Source: Escherichia coli (GTDB lineage Bacteria; Pseudomonadota; Gammaproteobacteria; Enterobacterales; Enterobacteriaceae). From it: DNA of 64,000 nt. Positions 8,886 to 63,305 of this stretch are shown piece by piece (within the stretch, counting starts at the first letter, position 1; each line of letters starts with the position of its first letter). The translations under genes and the position numbers were made by a program. Below the pieces are notes generated by a model, which was given only the letters and a program-made list of their open reading frames with translations, searched no databases and was not told the origin of the DNA. Location: the NCBI RefSeq assembly GCF_044324875.1, contig NZ_CP172188.1. One strand, given 5' to 3'.

Positions 8886-9377
8886 TTGTTATTATTTCGC
8901 TTATTTACTATCAATGGGTGTGTTAGAAAAATAGCGAGGAAAAGAAGGCGTCGCAGTGAATATTCTGAAACGTCCCCACATGCCGCAGCTCTCAGAGAAC
9001 TGGAGAAAAACCCAGATCTAATCAAAAGGAACCATGAGCATTACGAGCAGGTACGCGTCCTGGATTGGTTGTATCGCAATATGCGCTATGTGTATGAGCA
9101 TACACACGCCACTCCAAACGGCGGTCTGCGAGGCATAAGGACGGCAATAAAAATGGTGGCAGAGGGCCAAAAGAAGGGATATCCCGATCTTTCTATAGAC
9201 CTTGCTTGTGGGGGATACCACGGAATGCGCATTGAGATGAAACATGGGAGAAATCGCCTGACTCCCGAACAACTCGTCTGGATGACTCGCCTCACCGAAG
9301 CAGGTTACTACTGCTTTGAGGCGCGCAGTGCCGCTGAAGCCATAAAAGCTATCACGGAATATGTTTGTCTTGATTAA
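8886..9377 (+). CDS. VRR-NUC domain nuclease (PD-(D/E)XK family); true start uncertain (no in-frame ATG near 5' end, TTG/other likely)
   Basis: C-terminal region ...GYPDLSIDLACGGYHGMRIEMKHGRNRLTPEQLVWMTRLTEAGYY... fits the VRR-NUC pattern (G-x-PD ... E-x-K ... Q..W). Confidence 0.6.
   Translation: MLLFRLFTINGCVRKIARKRRRRSEYSETSPHAAALRELEKNPDLIKRNHEHYEQVRVLDWLYRNMRYVYEHTHATPNGGLRGIRTAIKMVAEGQKKGYPDLSIDLACGGYHGMRIEMKHGRNRLTPEQLVWMTRLTEAGYYCFEARSAAEAIKAITEYVCLD
8918..8934 (+). promoter_or_regulatory. operator-like motif copy (GTGTGTTAGAAAAATAG)
   Basis: Matches the recurrent TGTTAGAAAA core; lies at the 5' end of the VRR-NUC ORF. Confidence 0.45.
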
Positions 9378-24606: not shown

Positions 24607-24636
24607 GAAGCCCGCCTGGTTGAGCGGGCTTCTTTT
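24607..24636. terminator. hairpin terminator between convergent genes
   Basis: GAAGCCCGCCTGGTTGAGCGGGCTTCTTTTC. Confidence 0.6.
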
Positions 24637-25016
24637 CAAATATTGGAACCATATAGTTCACGTAGTTTTTTCGCTACTGAAGATACGGGGATTTCACCAG
24701 TTGCAGCCCCCACTGCAAGCTCCACCAGCACGGGATCATCATATACCTGTATACCGTTACGGCGTAGAAATAGCAGCGCACTGTTTAGCGCGGTACGCTT
24801 ATTGGCATCATTGAATATATGCCCTCTCGCCGTAGCCACCAGGTAGGTGGCGGAGACTTCGAAAAGGTCGGTGATCTCTTCGTAGGCAACTCTGGCCTGA
24901 ACTCTCCCGATAATGGCCTCTGCCCTACCCGGATCTGACATTCCCGGCAGGCCGCCGTAGCGGCTTATATTCGCATCATGAAGCGCAATAAGTTCTTCCG
25001 GTGATATATGCCTCAT
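24636..25016 (-). CDS. doc: Doc toxin (Fic-family kinase) of the phd-doc addiction module
   Basis: 126 aa [40 protein letters not shown]...; essentially the P1 Doc sequence as I recall it. Confidence 0.93.
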
Positions 25017-25237
25017 TATCGGTTAACCAGTTCCTTGTTGGTGGAGTCCAGGGTGTCAAACAGGGATGCAAATTCGGCATCCAGCGCCGCTTTTTTGTAG
25101 GCTTCAAAAGTAGCCTTGCTGACAATTACTGCTGGCTCACGGCCTCTGCGGGTGATTTCAACCTCTTCCCCGGCTTCAACATTGTTGAGCACTTCAGAAA
25201 GGTTGCCACGCGCGGTACGGAAGTTAATGGATTGCAT
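25016..25237 (-). CDS. phd: Phd antitoxin
   Basis: 73 aa from second Met: [49 protein letters not shown]...; overlaps doc start. Confidence 0.93.
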
Positions 25238-25309
25238 AAACACCTCGTGTACTCGTTATGTGTACACAATTATAAACTTCACAGGCATAAAGCACCAGCA
25301 CTTTGCAGC

Positions 25310-25699
25310 TTAAATAACCGGACAATCATCAAATTCCCCACTTCGGGCATCATTGATGACATGAGTGATCACACCAAAAACAGCATTACTGCCCGTGTAT
25401 CCATCGTCATCTACTGGTAACGCCTCTTTCTTCCCGGTGCTTAAGTCCTCCAGGTGCTGGCGCGGATACTTCCTGTATCTCTTTATGCGATATTCACCCT
25501 CCATAGCGCACACAAGCAGAGAACCATCAACCGGAGTAAGCGAGGAATCAACCACCAGCAAAGCACCCTGCAATATTCCCTCACGGTGATGGCTATCAGC
25601 TGCCCGCATGAAGTAGGTCGCTGAAGGATGTCTAATTATCTGCTGATCAAGAGAAATTCGGCTTTCAACATAATCCGCCGCAGGAGAAGGGAAGCCCAT
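25310..25699 (-). CDS. humD: HumD (UmuD'-like, LexA/S24 peptidase family)
   Basis: 129 aa; FPSPAADYVESRISLDQQIIRHPSATYF ... AVFGVITHVIN parallels UmuD. Confidence 0.75.
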   Translation of the reverse strand: MGFPSPAADYVESRISLDQQIIRHPSATYFMRAADSHHREGILQGALLVVDSSLTPVDGSLLVCAMEGEYRIKRYRKYPRQHLEDLSTGKKEALPVDDDGYTGSNAVFGVITHVINDARSGEFDDCPVI

Positions 25700-25717
25700 A
25701 GCGTTTTACCTCAATGA

Positions 25718-25737
25718 TACTGTTTATTCATACAGTA
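25718..25737. promoter_or_regulatory. LexA box (SOS operator) in the humD promoter
   Basis: TACTGTTTATTCATACAGTA = CTGT-N8-ACAG palindrome about 20 nt upstream of the humD start. Confidence 0.7.
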
Positions 25738-25822
25738 TACATTGAAAAGGCATAGTTTGTGAAAGCGGGGTTTGTAGGCGCGCCACGCTGGGGGCTAATC
25801 ACATTTCTCCCCCATCTTGCCG

Positions 25823-26074
25823 TTATTTTTTTGGTGCATCCTCGTTCTGATACACCGGATCGCTCCCTTTTGGCAACTGGAGGCTTAACTGCCGGTAGTG
25901 CCGTAGCCGTTCCATGAAATAGGCGCGCAGGTTTTCCGGTTGCTCACGGGCCACCTGCTCTGCAATCACAGGTATATTCAGCCGTTCTTTGTAAGCAACG
26001 CCGCTGGCGGCAAGGTCTACGTTCACCTTGTCTCGCTCTTCCTGGCTTTTAGCTGCTATATTTCGATCTGACAC
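25823..26074 (-). CDS. hot: Hot (homolog of DNA polymerase III theta subunit)
   Basis: 83 aa; [43 protein letters not shown] parallels E. coli HolE. Confidence 0.75.
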
Positions 26075-26106
26075 AAGAAACCTCCAGGAGTTAGTGGATC
26101 AGGCAC

Positions 26107-26457
26107 ATGCACAATAACGTTCTCAATGTTAGCCGTTCAATTCAGACAATCAGAGACTGCACCAGTGTGGTGGCATCAATCCCATTGCGAAACAGCATAG
26201 ACGAACTGCAAATTCGTGTATTGAATCCGAATCAGGCTAATAAGCAATTGCGCTTTATTTTGACGCTGAAAAGTGAAACAGAGGGGATAAAGCACAGCGT
26301 AAAAGTGTTTTCTGAGGCCATTCTGCTTAATGGGAAGCTCCGGCATCTGGTAAGGCCAGAACGTCAATATCCTGACGTCCTGGCGCGTGAAAAAGACCTT
26401 CTTTCTGAAGTTCAGGATAGGGTGATCGATTTCGTCAAATGCTATCCCCTGCATTGA
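26107..26457 (+). CDS. hypothetical protein
   Basis: 116-aa ORF, ATG start. Confidence 0.4.
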   Translation: MHNNVLNVSRSIQTIRDCTSVVASIPLRNSIDELQIRVLNPNQANKQLRFILTLKSETEGIKHSVKVFSEAILLNGKLRHLVRPERQYPDVLAREKDLLSEVQDRVIDFVKCYPLH

Positions 26458-38647: not shown

Positions 38648-39588
38648 TGAATCTGTCCATCTCTCAAAAAGCGACAATGACCAGCATTGAGATCGCGGAA
38701 CTGGTAGGAAGTCGCCAAGATAGTGTGAAGAGAACTATCGAAACACTGGCTAAAAAGAGTGTGATCCAATTTCCACAATCTGTGGAAATTGAAAATAAAC
38801 AATCAGTTGGCCCTCGTCGATTTTCCAAGGCTTACATCTTTGAAGGCGAACAAGGCAAGCGCGATAGTATCATTGTCGTCGCACAGCTCTCTCCGGAATT
38901 CACCGCCCGGCTGGTGGACCGCTGGCGCGAACTGGAGAATGCCAGGGGACCGTTAAAATCAAAAGCCGAAATCCTGGCTGAAATGGCGCAAATGCATCTT
39001 GAGCATGAACGCCGGATCAACGCCGTAAATGCCCAGGTAGCCGAGGTATCAGCACAAGTATCGATGGTCGCTGAAACACTCGAGCAAATAAAGAAAGGCA
39101 ATATGCCGGAAGGCTACATTGGCTACCGCCAGCTGGCGGCGAAATGCGGCCTGACTGAAGCCAAATGTCGCAACCTGGTTAACGCTTACCGGATACCCAC
39201 TGATACGCATGAGTTTTTGACTCCCGACGGTTTGCTTGCGCGACGCTCAATTGTGGCCCTGGCCCCCTTCCGGAAAGCCTTTAAGCAGGTTATGTCGGAG
39301 GCAGAACCACGCAACAAACGCTGGTATCATCCAAAGATGGGGATGTTTCAGGCAATCCACCATCCTGTGCCTGAAAGTCCAAAGGCAAACCTGTCGTTGC
39401 ATACCGCCAGAGAGAGGATTAAAACAGGGTATGCAATCGTATGCCGTCGAGCATCTTGGCCTGAAGGTGTATGGGTATGGCCCGAAGGTGGATCACGAAA
39501 GCACTGGCGCACTATCCGGGATGGGAAAATCCATGCGATTGATTTAGCTCCAGAGGATGTTGTTGCTACGGACTGGATTGTTAGTTAA
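38647..39588 (+). CDS. antirepressor-like protein: Rha-family N-terminal domain fused to DUF2829/Tad2-like C-terminal domain (module A)
   Basis: 313 aa; N-terminal MTSIEIAELVGSRQDSVKRTIE; C-terminal CRRASWPEGVWVWPEGG ... DLAPEDVVATDWIVS. Confidence 0.65.
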   Translation: MNLSISQKATMTSIEIAELVGSRQDSVKRTIETLAKKSVIQFPQSVEIENKQSVGPRRFSKAYIFEGEQGKRDSIIVVAQLSPEFTARLVDRWRELENARGPLKSKAEILAEMAQMHLEHERRINAVNAQVAEVSAQVSMVAETLEQIKKGNMPEGYIGYRQLAAKCGLTEAKCRNLVNAYRIPTDTHEFLTPDGLLARRSIVALAPFRKAFKQVMSEAEPRNKRWYHPKMGMFQAIHHPVPESPKANLSLHTARERIKTGYAIVCRRASWPEGVWVWPEGGSRKHWRTIRDGKIHAIDLAPEDVVATDWIVS

Positions 39589-42302: not shown

Positions 42303-43838
42303 TCAGTGGTAGTAGCCCGGACCACGCAGGTTTTCATGCTCTGAAGCATATGCCGGATGTTGTTCGCCCTGGCGGGATAATGGAAGCTCCAGGTTCTCCC
42401 GATGGTGACGCAGCAGATTGTCGATAAAGCGTCTGTCAGGGGCGTTATAGTGCAGGGCAACGTAACAGGCCTTTTCCAGCCGTTCCGGGCCGTATTTTTT
42501 CTGAAGTGCCAGCAGCCCCAGAACTGCACGATAAGCCAGTTCCGGATGGGGTTTTGCCTTCAGCATGGATTCAACCACCCGGCCTGTGGACGGGCCCGTA
42601 CGTTTTCCCTGCTCGATCAGGCGTTCCGGTGTCCATGTCCCGTGCTGCCGGTGGCGCTCTGGCATGTGAAGCGGATTGGTTGTGTGTTTATATTCATGTG
42701 TGCTGCGCGGATGTTGCGCCACACACTGCCCCTTGTGCCAGAGCTGTACCACCGACTGCCCCGCCTTCAGTGACAGACGCTGACCGACCAGTTCGTGTGG
42801 AACGGAGTACCAGTGACGGGCATATTCAACGTGGTAGTCAGGGCCAACCTTCACAGCTTTGTATTCCGTGTATTCATAAGGTGCCAGAGGCAGCGGAGAG
42901 AGTGCTGGCGCATCCAGTATGCGGAAGCGTTCTGCACGGGTTTGATTGCCGTACCCCTTCATTGGCCGGTTATTCATGTCTGTCAGTAACTCCCTAAGGC
43001 GCGCATTCAGCGCCCTGAGCGTGTGGAAGGTTTCATTACGGATGCGGGCAAGAAGCCATCGTTCAACGATGAGGACGCCGTTTTCTGCTTTTGGTTTATC
43101 TTTAGGTTTGCGTGGTCGGGCCGGGATGATAACCGTGCCATAGTGCTCAGCCAGTGCCTGATAACTGTCGTTGATGACAGGCTCATATCGATCGGCCTTT
43201 TTCACTGCGCTTCTGAGGTTATCGGGGATGAGCAGCTTCGGTACGCCGCCCAGGAAGGTCAGGCAACGGCTGTGGGCATTTAACCATGACATCATGTCCT
43301 GACCTTCGCACGCTTCAACGTAGGTATAGTTGGACGCCCCCATTACGGCCACGAAGATTGCCACGCGGCGTATCTCACCGGTGTCCGGATTAATAACAGG
43401 AACCGTAGGACCACAGAAGTCGATAAAAAGCTTTTCGCCGGCACGATGCTCCTGGCGCATGGAGAGACGTCGCGTTTTTTTCCACTCCCGGTAGCAACGG
43501 CAGAAGTGCGAGTATCCCATCGCTTTGTTACCCGCCTGTGCCTTGTATTCCATCCACAACAGTTGCCGCGTCACACCTGGTTTTCTCATTTCCGTATCGA
43601 AGTACAACATGTCAGGCATTACAAGCTCTGATGCAAAGGTGTCTTTGGGCGGAAAAATGAGTTTCTCCAGCGTGTCATGGGATATATCAGCAGGTAATGG
43701 CCATGACAGAGAAGAGGCTTTGAAGCGGGCAAGAACCTCAAAAACGGTTGAGGCGCTGATGTGTAACGTCAGTCCGATACAACGGTTAGTCAGCTTCTTG
43801 TCGAACTTGAGCTGAAGGATCTTAAAACAGGTTTCCAT
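42303..43838 (-). CDS. istA: IS21 transposase IstA
   Basis: 511 aa from METCFKIL; N-terminal HTH and DDE-type core. Confidence 0.85.
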   Translation of the reverse strand: METCFKILQLKFDKKLTNRCIGLTLHISASTVFEVLARFKASSLSWPLPADISHDTLEKLIFPPKDTFASELVMPDMLYFDTEMRKPGVTRQLLWMEYKAQAGNKAMGYSHFCRCYREWKKTRRLSMRQEHRAGEKLFIDFCGPTVPVINPDTGEIRRVAIFVAVMGASNYTYVEACEGQDMMSWLNAHSRCLTFLGGVPKLLIPDNLRSAVKKADRYEPVINDSYQALAEHYGTVIIPARPRKPKDKPKAENGVLIVERWLLARIRNETFHTLRALNARLRELLTDMNNRPMKGYGNQTRAERFRILDAPALSPLPLAPYEYTEYKAVKVGPDYHVEYARHWYSVPHELVGQRLSLKAGQSVVQLWHKGQCVAQHPRSTHEYKHTTNPLHMPERHRQHGTWTPERLIEQGKRTGPSTGRVVESMLKAKPHPELAYRAVLGLLALQKKYGPERLEKACYVALHYNAPDRRFIDNLLRHHRENLELPLSRQGEQHPAYASEHENLRGPGYYH

Positions 43839-62385: not shown

Positions 62386-63305
62386 TGGATATCTGCATTC
62401 TTGAAAAGCCATCAATGACCAGCATTGAGATCGCGGAGCTGGTGGGAAGTCGTCCAGATAACGTAAAAATATCAATAGAGCGCCTGGCTAAATCTGGAGT
62501 TATTCAACTTCCTGCATTGCAGGTTTTCGAAAAAATCAATAACTTAGGACTACGCCGTAGTGTCGAGGCTTACGTCTTCGAAGGCGAGCAAGGCAAACGA
62601 GACAGCATTATTGTCGTTGCGCAGCTCTCTCCCGAATTCACCGCCCGGCTGGTGGACCGCTGGCGCGAACTGGAAGAACAAGTACGCCAGCCGTTGACCG
62701 AAATAGAGATGATCGCCGCAATGGCTGCAAATGCAGTTCAGCAGCAAAAGCGGCTTCATGTTGTTGAGTCAAAGGTTAGCCAGGTTGCTGAAACCGTCGA
62801 GCAGATCAAGAAGGGCAACATGCCAGAAGGTTACATTGGCTACCGCCAGCTGGCGGCGAAATGTGGCCTGACTGAAGCCAAATGTCGCAACCTGGTTAAC
62901 GCTTTCCGGATTCCCACCGATACGCATGAGTTTTTAACTCCAGATGGTTTGCTTGCGCGACGCTCCATTGTGGCCCTGGCCCCCTTCCGGAAAGCCTTTA
63001 AGCAGGTGATGTCGGAGGCAGAACCACGCAACAAACGCTGGTATCATCCGAAGATGGGGCTGTTTCAGGCAATCCATCATCCTGTGCCTGAAAGCCCAAA
63101 GGATAATCTGTCACTACATACCGTCAGAGAGAAGATCAGGACTGGATACGCAACAGTGTGTCGTCGTTCTTCCTGGCCTGAAGGTATATGGGTGTGGCCC
63201 GAAGGTGGATCACGAAAGCACTGGCGCACTATCCGGGACGGGAAAATCCATGCTATTGATTTAGCGCCAGAGGATATTGTTGCTACGGACTGGATTGTTA
63301 GTTAA
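62385..63305 (+). CDS. antirepressor-like protein: Rha-family N-terminal domain fused to DUF2829/Tad2-like domain (module B)
   Basis: 306 aa; N-terminal 60 aa and middle linker differ from module A, C-terminal 200 aa nearly identical. Confidence 0.65.
   Translation: MDICILEKPSMTSIEIAELVGSRPDNVKISIERLAKSGVIQLPALQVFEKINNLGLRRSVEAYVFEGEQGKRDSIIVVAQLSPEFTARLVDRWRELEEQVRQPLTEIEMIAAMAANAVQQQKRLHVVESKVSQVAETVEQIKKGNMPEGYIGYRQLAAKCGLTEAKCRNLVNAFRIPTDTHEFLTPDGLLARRSIVALAPFRKAFKQVMSEAEPRNKRWYHPKMGLFQAIHHPVPESPKDNLSLHTVREKIRTGYATVCRRSSWPEGIWVWPEGGSRKHWRTIRDGKIHAIDLAPEDIVATDWIVS

What the first reader, a model, noticed from the sequence alone, without database searches (positions are those of the whole stretch)
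25718..25737. LexA box in the humD promoter: SOS-responsive gene on the element
A near-perfect CTGT-N8-ACAG palindrome (TACTGTTTATTCATACAGTA) lies about 20 nt upstream of humD. This ties part of the element to the host SOS response independently of the operator motif regulon.
Basis: partly seen in the sequence, partly recalled or inferred. Interest (0 to 1): 0.3.

Follow-up and report, generated by a model that had tools for sequence, protein, structure and literature searches.

The report
Known LexA box before phage humD
This is a genuine, very strong binding site for the host SOS repressor LexA on the promoter of humD, a phage copy of the mutagenesis protein UmuD', but the same site is already annotated in phages P1 and P7, so it is an ordinary, known feature.

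Summary
TACTGTTTATTCATACAGTA sits at 25718-25737, 18 nt upstream of the ATG of a minus-strand 129-aa gene (25310-25699) that encodes HumD, a pre-truncated UmuD' homolog. It is far beyond chance. It is the only site in 64 kb within 3 mismatches of the 20-mer SOS consensus (0.01 expected). It scores about 25 bits on a LexA matrix, against 13 bits for the runner-up and a maximum of 20.6 in 200 shuffles. The only sigma-70-like promoter in the region (-35 TTCACA, 18 nt, -10 TATACT, minus strand) overlaps the box by 4 nt, so bound LexA should block transcription initiation. The orthologous site is already annotated as a LexA binding site in the P1 and P7 GenBank records, and a similar site is annotated in phiKO2. 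All 17 phage humD/umuD-like loci I examined carry a 20-26.5 bit box shortly upstream, with conserved arms and divergent spacers. The element is D6-like with its own operator motif (16 copies). None lies within about 6 kb of humD, so "independent of the operator regulon" holds at the level of binding sites. One local difference is that P1's divergent partner gene lxr is absent here, a configuration shared by many plasmids. LexA binding and SOS induction could not be tested here. Verdict: real, functional-looking, already known. Low interest.

The parts
25718..25737 (.). LexA (SOS) box. It reads TACTGTTTATTCATACAGTA on the + strand and TACTGTATGAATAAACAGTA in the humD sense.
   Evidence: unique within 3 mismatches of the consensus, 0.01 expected. 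(about 25 bits, runner-up 13 bits). Orthologous to the annotated LexA sites of P1 and P7.
25734..25739 (-). Predicted -10 hexamer TATACT of PhumD. It overlaps the box by 4 nt.
   Evidence: 10 of 12 match to the sigma-70 consensus, and the only promoter-like site in 25200-26300. Prediction only.
25758..25763 (-). Predicted -35 hexamer TTCACA of PhumD, with an 18-nt spacer.
   Evidence: In phage D6 a deletion that truncates hot ends just upstream of this hexamer, leaving the -35, the -10 and the box intact.
25709..25712 (-). Shine-Dalgarno GAGG of humD, 9 nt before the ATG.
   Evidence: Read directly from the sequence. Conserved in P1, P7, RCS47, D6 and PhiR41_1.
25310..25699 (-). humD, 129 aa. 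It is a UmuD'-like protein made without the N-terminal tail that RecA-assisted cleavage removes from UmuD.
   Evidence: ORF. (Peptidase_S24, E 6.8e-9). (residues 2-118 align to UmuD' 1umu residues 1-114 and to full-length UmuD 8gmt_B residues 25-136). (98.5-100% identity to HumD of P1-family phages).
25823..26074 (-). hot, a homolog of the DNA polymerase III theta subunit. It is the next gene upstream on the same strand. In P1 the divergent gene lxr lies between hot and the box.
   Evidence: DNA_pol3_theta, E 2.8e-33..
25016..25237 (-). phd antitoxin, downstream of humD on the same strand, with no terminator-like site in between.
   Evidence: PhdYeFM_antitox. (no terminator between humD and phd). 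(annotation in P1 and RCS47). Coordinates use the ATG that matches the 73-aa P1 Phd.
24636..25016 (-). doc toxin.
   Evidence: Fic/DOC..

Best explanation
The 20-bp palindrome is an operator for the host LexA repressor on the promoter of humD. In an undamaged lysogen, a LexA dimer on the box covers the -10 hexamer and the likely start site and keeps humD off. DNA damage makes RecA filaments that trigger LexA self-cleavage. The box is then vacated and humD is transcribed. HumD is made already in the UmuD' form, so it skips the second SOS checkpoint (RecA-assisted UmuD cleavage) and can pair with host UmuC to give a Pol V-like translesion polymerase. Shown here: the site, its strength, its position over a predicted promoter, its orthology to annotated LexA sites, its conservation across the gene family, and the truncated form of the protein. 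Inferred: LexA occupancy, SOS induction, and the promoter itself. Taken from the literature: that HumD substitutes for UmuD'.
For: Site strength and uniqueness. Overlap with the only promoter-like element, whose -10 shares 4 nt with the box. Positional orthology with sites annotated as LexA binding sites in P1 (AF234172, 87545..87564) and P7 (AF503408, 94404..94423). Between the P1/P7 version and this one only two spacer positions differ, and the TACTGT/ACAGTA arms are intact. Phylogenetic footprint: 17 of 17 loci carry a 20.3-26.5 bit box. These are P1, P7, RCS47, D6, PhiR41_1, N15, phiKO2, HK140, HK639, an Enterobacter phage, BTP1, Huey, an Aeromonas phage, a Hafnia phage, a Pantoea phage and two phage umuDC operons. 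The protein identity to the window's HumD runs from about 39% to 100%. In 15 of them the box ends about 12-21 nt before the homolog's start codon. In phiKO2 the gap is 44 nt. In HK140 the box precedes a small ORF that sits upstream of the homolog. Spacers differ widely, and the second-best site in each locus scores at most 9.4 bits. Four different structures lie upstream of the promoter (lxr in P1, upf94.2 in P7, hot directly adjacent here and in RCS47, truncated hot in D6), yet the promoter and box are kept. HumD starts at the residue equivalent to UmuD Gly25. The literature describes HumD as an already activated, shorter UmuD (PMC7092418) and humD as LexA-regulated (PMC9603915).
Against: There is no direct evidence here for LexA binding or damage induction. 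The promoter is a consensus match only (1 found against 1.6 expected in shuffles of the region). The P1 record places its 'predicted PhumD' about 480 nt further upstream, inside lxr, not at the box. hot lies upstream on the same strand with no predicted terminator, so some humD transcription could arrive by read-through, and the box would then act only as a roadblock. My scoring matrix was built from boxes recalled from memory. However, the consensus-mismatch test and the exact TACTGT-N8-ACAGTA matches do not depend on it.
Confidence: 0.9

Rival explanations
1. The box is mainly the operator of a divergent gene (lxr, 'LexA regulated function', in P1). Here, where lxr is missing, it is a leftover that happens to lie before humD.
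For: The P1 record annotates the site as serving both lxr and humD. In phiKO2 and HK140 the box sits between a divergent dinI homolog and the humD-like gene or operon. lxr is absent in the window, apart from a possible trace of its first codons at 25792-25812.
Against: The box is kept at the same short distance from humD in every context, including N15, HK639, and the Hafnia, Aeromonas and Pantoea phages, where no divergent gene is annotated next to it. It also overlaps a -10 oriented toward humD. The lxr-less junction is common and well conserved: 194 plasmid records cover at least 80% of a 351-nt query across it, and 60 are at least 99% identical.
Confidence: 0.05
2. The palindrome acts as an RNA hairpin rather than a protein site. 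In transcripts reading through from hot it would fold, pause or terminate transcription, or hide the humD ribosome-binding site.
For: In this lineage the inverted repeat extends beyond the 20-mer (about 25712-25744). The 81-nt RNA folds to -19.1 kcal/mol against -11.7 for shuffles (z -2.6, 3 of 200 shuffles as good), and the outer stem touches the GAGG.
Against: There is no T-run after the stem and no terminator call. The extension of the palindrome is not shared by P1 and P7. Across the family, the LexA-specific letters (CTGT/ACAG at fixed spacing with an A+T-rich spacer) are what is conserved, not merely pairing potential. Any perfect LexA box is a palindrome, so it will fold. This could at most be an added layer on top of LexA binding, not a replacement for it.
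Confidence: 0.03
3. It is a chance palindrome with no function.
For: The short CTGT-N8-ACAG core alone is not significant in 64 kb.
Against: The full 20-mer is expected 0.01 times. It scores about 12 bits above the runner-up and above all 200 shuffles. It is orthologous and conserved across diverged phages.
Confidence: 0.01

Closest known systems
LexA binding site upstream of humD in phage P1 (AF234172, 87545..87564) and P7 (AF503408, 94404..94423)
   Same: The position relative to humD is the same (18-19 nt before the ATG). The Shine-Dalgarno sequence and the TACTGT/ACAGTA arms are the same. HumD is 98.5-99.2% identical. The downstream phd-doc genes are the same.
   Different: Two spacer positions are swapped (humD sense: ATGAATAA here, ATAAATGA in P1/P7). 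P1 has TGTACT where the window and P7 have TATACT at the predicted -10. The divergent gene on the far side of the box (lxr in P1, upf94.2 in P7) is absent here, so hot follows directly. The backbone is D6-like, with a different immunity and operator set.
Phage RCS47 and D6 humD regions, and many about 90-100 kb E. coli, Salmonella and Shigella phage-plasmids
   Same: The box is identical (TACTGTATGAATAAACAGTA), as are the promoter and the leader. RCS47 is 98.9% identical over 1 kb with the same hot-box-humD order. 60 plasmid records are at least 99% identical across the junction.
   Different: In D6, hot is truncated to 147 nt and ends just before the -35. None of these records annotates the box.
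E. coli umuDC SOS box and promoter
   Same: A LexA box of similar strength (about 25 bits in my matrix for both) sits on the promoter of a umuD-type gene, and the logic is the same: LexA keeps the mutagenesis factor off until DNA is damaged (established knowledge).
   Different: The phage gene stands alone without umuC. Its product already lacks the N-terminal 24 residues, so the RecA-dependent cleavage step is bypassed (PMC7092418).
LexA site upstream of the UmuD-like gene of phiKO2 (annotated) and of N15 gene 26
   Same: These are orphan pre-truncated umuD' genes in plasmid prophages, each with a strong box just upstream (24.3-25.1 bits).
   Different: Protein identity is only 67-69%. The neighbours differ (tail fibre, dinI and parB instead of hot and phd-doc). 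A terminator is annotated right after the gene, whereas none is predicted here.

Membership tests
Gammaproteobacterial (E. coli-type) LexA/SOS box | A 20-bp imperfect palindrome TACTG(TA)5CAGTA, with CTG and CAG exactly 10 nt apart and an A+T-rich spacer. | tested here: met
   17 of 20 positions match the consensus, both arms TACTGT/ACAGTA are perfect, and 7 of the 8 spacer positions are A or T.
Gammaproteobacterial (E. coli-type) LexA/SOS box | A predicted affinity in the range of proven sites (low heterology index or high matrix score). | tested here: met
   24.9-25.2 bits with an approximate HI of 3. The 28 reference boxes span 12.5-25.7 bits. The matrix was recalled from memory, so the values are approximate.
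Gammaproteobacterial (E. coli-type) LexA/SOS box | It overlaps or adjoins the promoter of the regulated gene. | tested here: inconclusive
   It overlaps the -10 of a 10-of-12 sigma-70 match oriented toward humD. The promoter is predicted only, and no transcript start is known to me.
Gammaproteobacterial (E. coli-type) LexA/SOS box | It is bound by LexA, and the gene is derepressed on DNA damage in a lexA- and recA-dependent way. | not testable with these tools
   This needs an EMSA or footprint and reporter or RT-qPCR assays. The literature statement that humD is LexA-regulated (PMC9603915) could not be traced to primary data.
Ortholog of the P1/P7 humD LexA site | The same position relative to orthologous flanking genes, with alignable flanks. 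| tested here: met
   The alignment is collinear from humD through the box, and the features are annotated at the aligned columns.
HumD / UmuD'-like accessory subunit (the regulated gene) | An S24 peptidase-fold protein that begins at the UmuD cleavage site, with no N-terminal arm. | tested here: met
   Pfam PF00717. Residue 2 aligns to UmuD' residue 1 and to UmuD residue 25.
HumD / UmuD'-like accessory subunit (the regulated gene) | It functionally replaces UmuD' with host UmuC in SOS mutagenesis. | not testable with these tools
   This is reported for P1 HumD by McLenigan et al. 1999, as cited in PMC7092418. The protein here is 98.5% identical to P1 HumD.

The most novel reading that the evidence does not exclude
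No terminator-like site separates humD from phd-doc here, whereas one is annotated right after the N15 and phiKO2 homologs. LexA release might therefore send transcription from PhumD through the phd-doc addiction operon, tying the toxin-antitoxin balance of the plasmid prophage to DNA damage. Separately, the lineage-specific extension of the palindrome might fold in read-through transcripts from hot and hide the humD ribosome-binding site, so that HumD is made only from its own LexA-gated promoter.
Probability: 0.12. Interest if true: 0.35.

Novelty: already known. Interest (0 to 1): 0.1.

Why it matters
It matters little beyond annotation. The site confirms that this D6-like phage-plasmid, like P1, keeps one accessory gene under direct host SOS control rather than under its own immunity repressor. 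Lysogens can therefore supply a ready-made UmuD' on DNA damage, which may raise damage-induced mutagenesis in hosts carrying such plasmids, many of which come from clinical or food sources. The survey also gives a tidy rule: orphan phage umuD' genes travel with their own strong LexA box. That rule is useful for automatic annotation, because most records, including RCS47, D6 and the RefSeq plasmids, do not mark the site.

Tried and rejected
(1) The bare CTGT-N8-ACAG pattern as evidence. It is not significant alone, so I replaced it with the full-consensus and matrix tests.

(2) The second CTGT-N8-ACAG at 43165. It scores 2.5 bits and lies inside a 548-aa ORF, so it is a chance match.

(3) Other LexA-like sites in the window: 8998 (13.1 bits), 61694 (12.7) and 17936 (11.2, inside a 502-aa ORF). 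All are at the level of the best site in shuffled sequence (mean maximum 13.0), so I did not claim them.

(4) P1-type C1 operators. There are none within 3 mismatches of ATTGCTCTAATAAATTT, and only scattered 3-4 mismatch hits to the five annotated P1 operators. The explanation is that the element is D6-like, with its own motif.

(5) A LexA feature at the P1 coi promoter, mentioned in PMC4713147. It is not annotated in AF234172 92500-94800, and no strong equivalent exists in this window.

(6) Reading the primary papers (Lobocka 2004, PMC523184; McLenigan 1999, PMC94175; Chikova and Schaaper 2007, PMC2072811). They are not held.

(7) The Ref paper's RT-qPCR of humD, phd and hot. It concerns thermal induction of the lytic cycle, not SOS or LexA, so it does not test the claim.

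(8) The terminator or hairpin reading of the palindrome. No T-run and no terminator call.

Full report
**1. What is in the sequence**

Positions 25718-25737 read TACTGTTTATTCATACAGTA. The CTGT-N8-ACAG core is at 25720-25735. The neighbouring gene lies on the minus strand: ORF 25310..25699, 129 aa, starting MGFPSPAADYVE. Its ATG is at 25697-25699, so 18 nt separate it from the box. In the sense of the gene the region reads:

-35 TTCACA (25763-25758), then 18 nt, then -10 TATACT (25739-25734), overlapping the box TACTGTATGAATAAACAGTA, then TCATTGAGGTAAAACGCT, then ATG.

The -35/-10 pair is the only sigma-70-like site that the scan finds in 25200-26300, on either strand. It shares 4 nt with the box. 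A GAGG lies 9 nt before the ATG.

**2. Is it more than chance?**

- The short core alone is not significant: 2 matches against 0.66 expected.
- The whole 20-mer is significant. It is the only place in 64 kb within 3 mismatches of the textbook consensus TACTGTATATATATACAGTA, with 0.01 expected.
- I built a symmetrised matrix from 28 E. coli SOS boxes that I recalled from the literature, so it is approximate. On it the box scores 24.9-25.2 bits with a heterology index of about 3. That is in the class of umuDC and above recA.
- The runner-up in the window scores 13.1 bits. In 200 shuffles the best site averaged 13.0 bits (sd 2.5, maximum 20.6).
- The other core match, at 43165, scores 2.5 bits and sits inside a 548-aa ORF.

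**3. What the gene is**

- The ORF has a Peptidase_S24 domain.
- It is 98.5% identical to P1 HumD and 99.2% to P7 HumD.
- It aligns to solved UmuD' from that protein's first residue. Query residues 2-118 match 1umu residues 1-114, and match residues 25-136 of full-length UmuD in 8gmt_B.
- It is therefore made in the already-processed form, as described for P1 HumD (PMC7092418, citing McLenigan et al. 1999).
- Upstream on the same strand is hot, a Pol III theta homolog (25823-26074). Downstream are phd and doc.

**4. What the element is**

- The 1-kb stretch around the box is 98.9% identical to phage RCS47 and about 92% identical to P1, with a gap.
- The first 22 kb of the window is instead about 92% identical to phage D6, including its c1 repressor and dre recombinase.
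- So this is a mosaic D6-like member of the P1 family of plasmid prophages.
- P1-type C1 operators are absent.
- A different motif, TTAGTTTTCTAACAT, recurs 16 times within 3 mismatches, against 2.0 expected. No copy lies between 19520 and 31444.
- The humD promoter therefore has no copy of the element's own operator within about 6 kb.

**5. It is already known**

- The P1 record annotates the aligned 20 bp as a protein_bind feature for LexA, described as "LexA binding site in the regulatory region of lxr and humD". The P7 record annotates it as "regulation of humD expression".
- phiKO2 carries a "lexA; binding site" feature next to its UmuD-like gene.
- PMC9603915 states that humD is a LexA-regulated SOS gene, and lists pmgT-hot-lxr-humD as one of eight variable regions of P1-like phage-plasmids.
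- humD, lxr and hot are non-essential for P1 plaque formation (PMC10695390).

**6. Comparative evidence for function**

- Between P1/P7 and this window only two spacer positions of the box differ, and the arms are intact.
- I fetched 17 loci whose humD/umuD-type protein is about 39-100% identical to the window's HumD. They are P1, P7, RCS47, D6, PhiR41_1, N15, phiKO2, HK140, HK639, an Enterobacter phage, BTP1, Huey, phages of Aeromonas, Hafnia and Pantoea, and two phage umuDC operons.
- Every one has a 20.3-26.5 bit box. No second site in any locus exceeds 9.4 bits.
- In 15 of the 17 the box ends about 12-21 nt before the homolog's start codon. In phiKO2 the gap is 44 nt. In HK140 the box precedes a small upstream ORF.
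- The spacers are all different, and 12 of the 17 keep exact TACTGT-N8-ACAGTA.
- Four different structures lie upstream of the promoter: lxr in P1, upf94.2 in P7, hot directly adjacent here and in RCS47, and a truncated hot in D6. In D6 the deletion stops just before the -35. The promoter and box survive in all four.
- The lxr-less junction seen here is common. 194 plasmid records cover at least 80% of a 351-nt query across it, 60 are at least 99% identical, and most are about 90-100 kb non-mobilizable plasmids of E. coli, Salmonella and Shigella.

**7. Mechanism**

The best-supported model is the standard one. LexA bound to the box occludes the -10 and the start site of PhumD. RecA-stimulated LexA cleavage after DNA damage frees the promoter. 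HumD is then produced ready to pair with host UmuC, bypassing the UmuD cleavage checkpoint.

- Shown here: the site, its position, its conservation, and the form of the protein.
- Inferred: LexA occupancy, induction, and the promoter.
- From the literature: HumD function.

Caveats:
- The promoter is a pattern match (1 found against 1.6 expected).
- The P1 record predicts its PhumD about 480 nt further upstream, inside lxr.
- hot lies upstream with no terminator call, so read-through is possible.

**8. Rivals**

- *A leftover of a divergent-gene operator (lxr).* This is unlikely, because the box follows humD in contexts with no divergent gene.
- *An RNA hairpin.* The fold is -19.1 kcal/mol, z -2.6. 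It lacks a T-run, and its extension beyond the 20-mer is lineage-specific. What is conserved is the LexA-specific letters.
- *Chance.* Excluded.

**9. Verdict**

The feature is already known and annotated in close relatives. The only local twists are the absence of lxr and the D6-like backbone. Interest is low.

Noticed in passing
window 25738-25822 (compare L001:2040-2750): P1's divergent gene lxr (573 nt), between the box and hot, is absent here, as in RCS47. A stretch at 25792-25812 (GGGGCTAATCACATTTCTCCC) resembles the first codons of P1 lxr and may be a remnant. Similarity to P1 and P7 decays within about 10-25 nt upstream of the box, so the promoter marks a mosaic boundary.
   Followed up: partly
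window 1-22100 versus 25200-26200: The backbone is about 92% identical to phage D6 (c1, dre, pacAB, terminase). The hot-humD patch is 98.9% RCS47-like. In D6 itself hot is truncated to 147 nt and fused close to the humD promoter. The element is a mosaic within the P1/D6 family.
   Followed up: partly
window 3420, 8920, 9963, 11214, 11370, 15075, 19506, 31444, 36963, 37617, 41388, 48543, 59838, 61821, 61838, 63760: The motif TTAGTTTTCTAACAT recurs 16 times within 3 mismatches, against 2.0 expected. It is presumably this element's repressor operator. P1-type C1 operators (ATTGCTCTAATAAATTT) are absent.
   Followed up: partly
window about 25712-25744: In this lineage the palindrome extends beyond the LexA 20-mer (CAATGTATACTGT...ACAGTATCATTG). 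As RNA the region folds to -19.1 kcal/mol (z -2.6), and the outer stem reaches the humD GAGG. This would matter only for transcripts reading through from hot. It is not shared by P1 and P7.
   Followed up: partly
window about 47-92, 39115-39160, 62832-62877: There are three copies of a repeat containing ACATTGGCTACCGCCAGCTGGCGGCGAAA, which has a GC-rich palindrome CGCCAGCTGGCG at its core. They turned up in a k-mer count. Their nature is unknown.
   Followed up: no
window 8998-9017: A weak LexA-like site, AACTGGAGAAAAACCCAGAT (13.1 bits), lies about 64 nt from an operator-like motif at 8920-8934, in a region with only short ORFs. The score equals the average best hit in shuffled sequence, so it is probably chance.
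   Followed up: partly
L010 (Salmonella phage BTP1) 564-583 and 601-973: The BTP1 humD homolog matches in two pieces, is not annotated as a gene, and appears interrupted. It still has the best-scoring LexA box of the set (TACTGTATTAATATACAGTA, 26.5 bits).
   Followed up: no
L006 (phiKO2) 537-575; L007 (HK140) 319-338: In phiKO2 and HK140 the LexA box lies between a divergent dinI homolog and the humD-like gene or operon, so one box may serve two SOS-type genes. The phiKO2 record's lexA feature (555-575) is offset from the best matrix site (537-556), which suggests either a second half-site or imprecise annotation.
   Followed up: no
L001 (P1) 2478-2504 versus 2040-2070: The P1 record puts its 'predicted PhumD' inside lxr, about 480 nt upstream of humD. 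A -35/-10 pair overlapping the LexA box aligns with the one found here. P1 has TGTACT at the -10, where P7 and the window have TATACT.
   Followed up: partly
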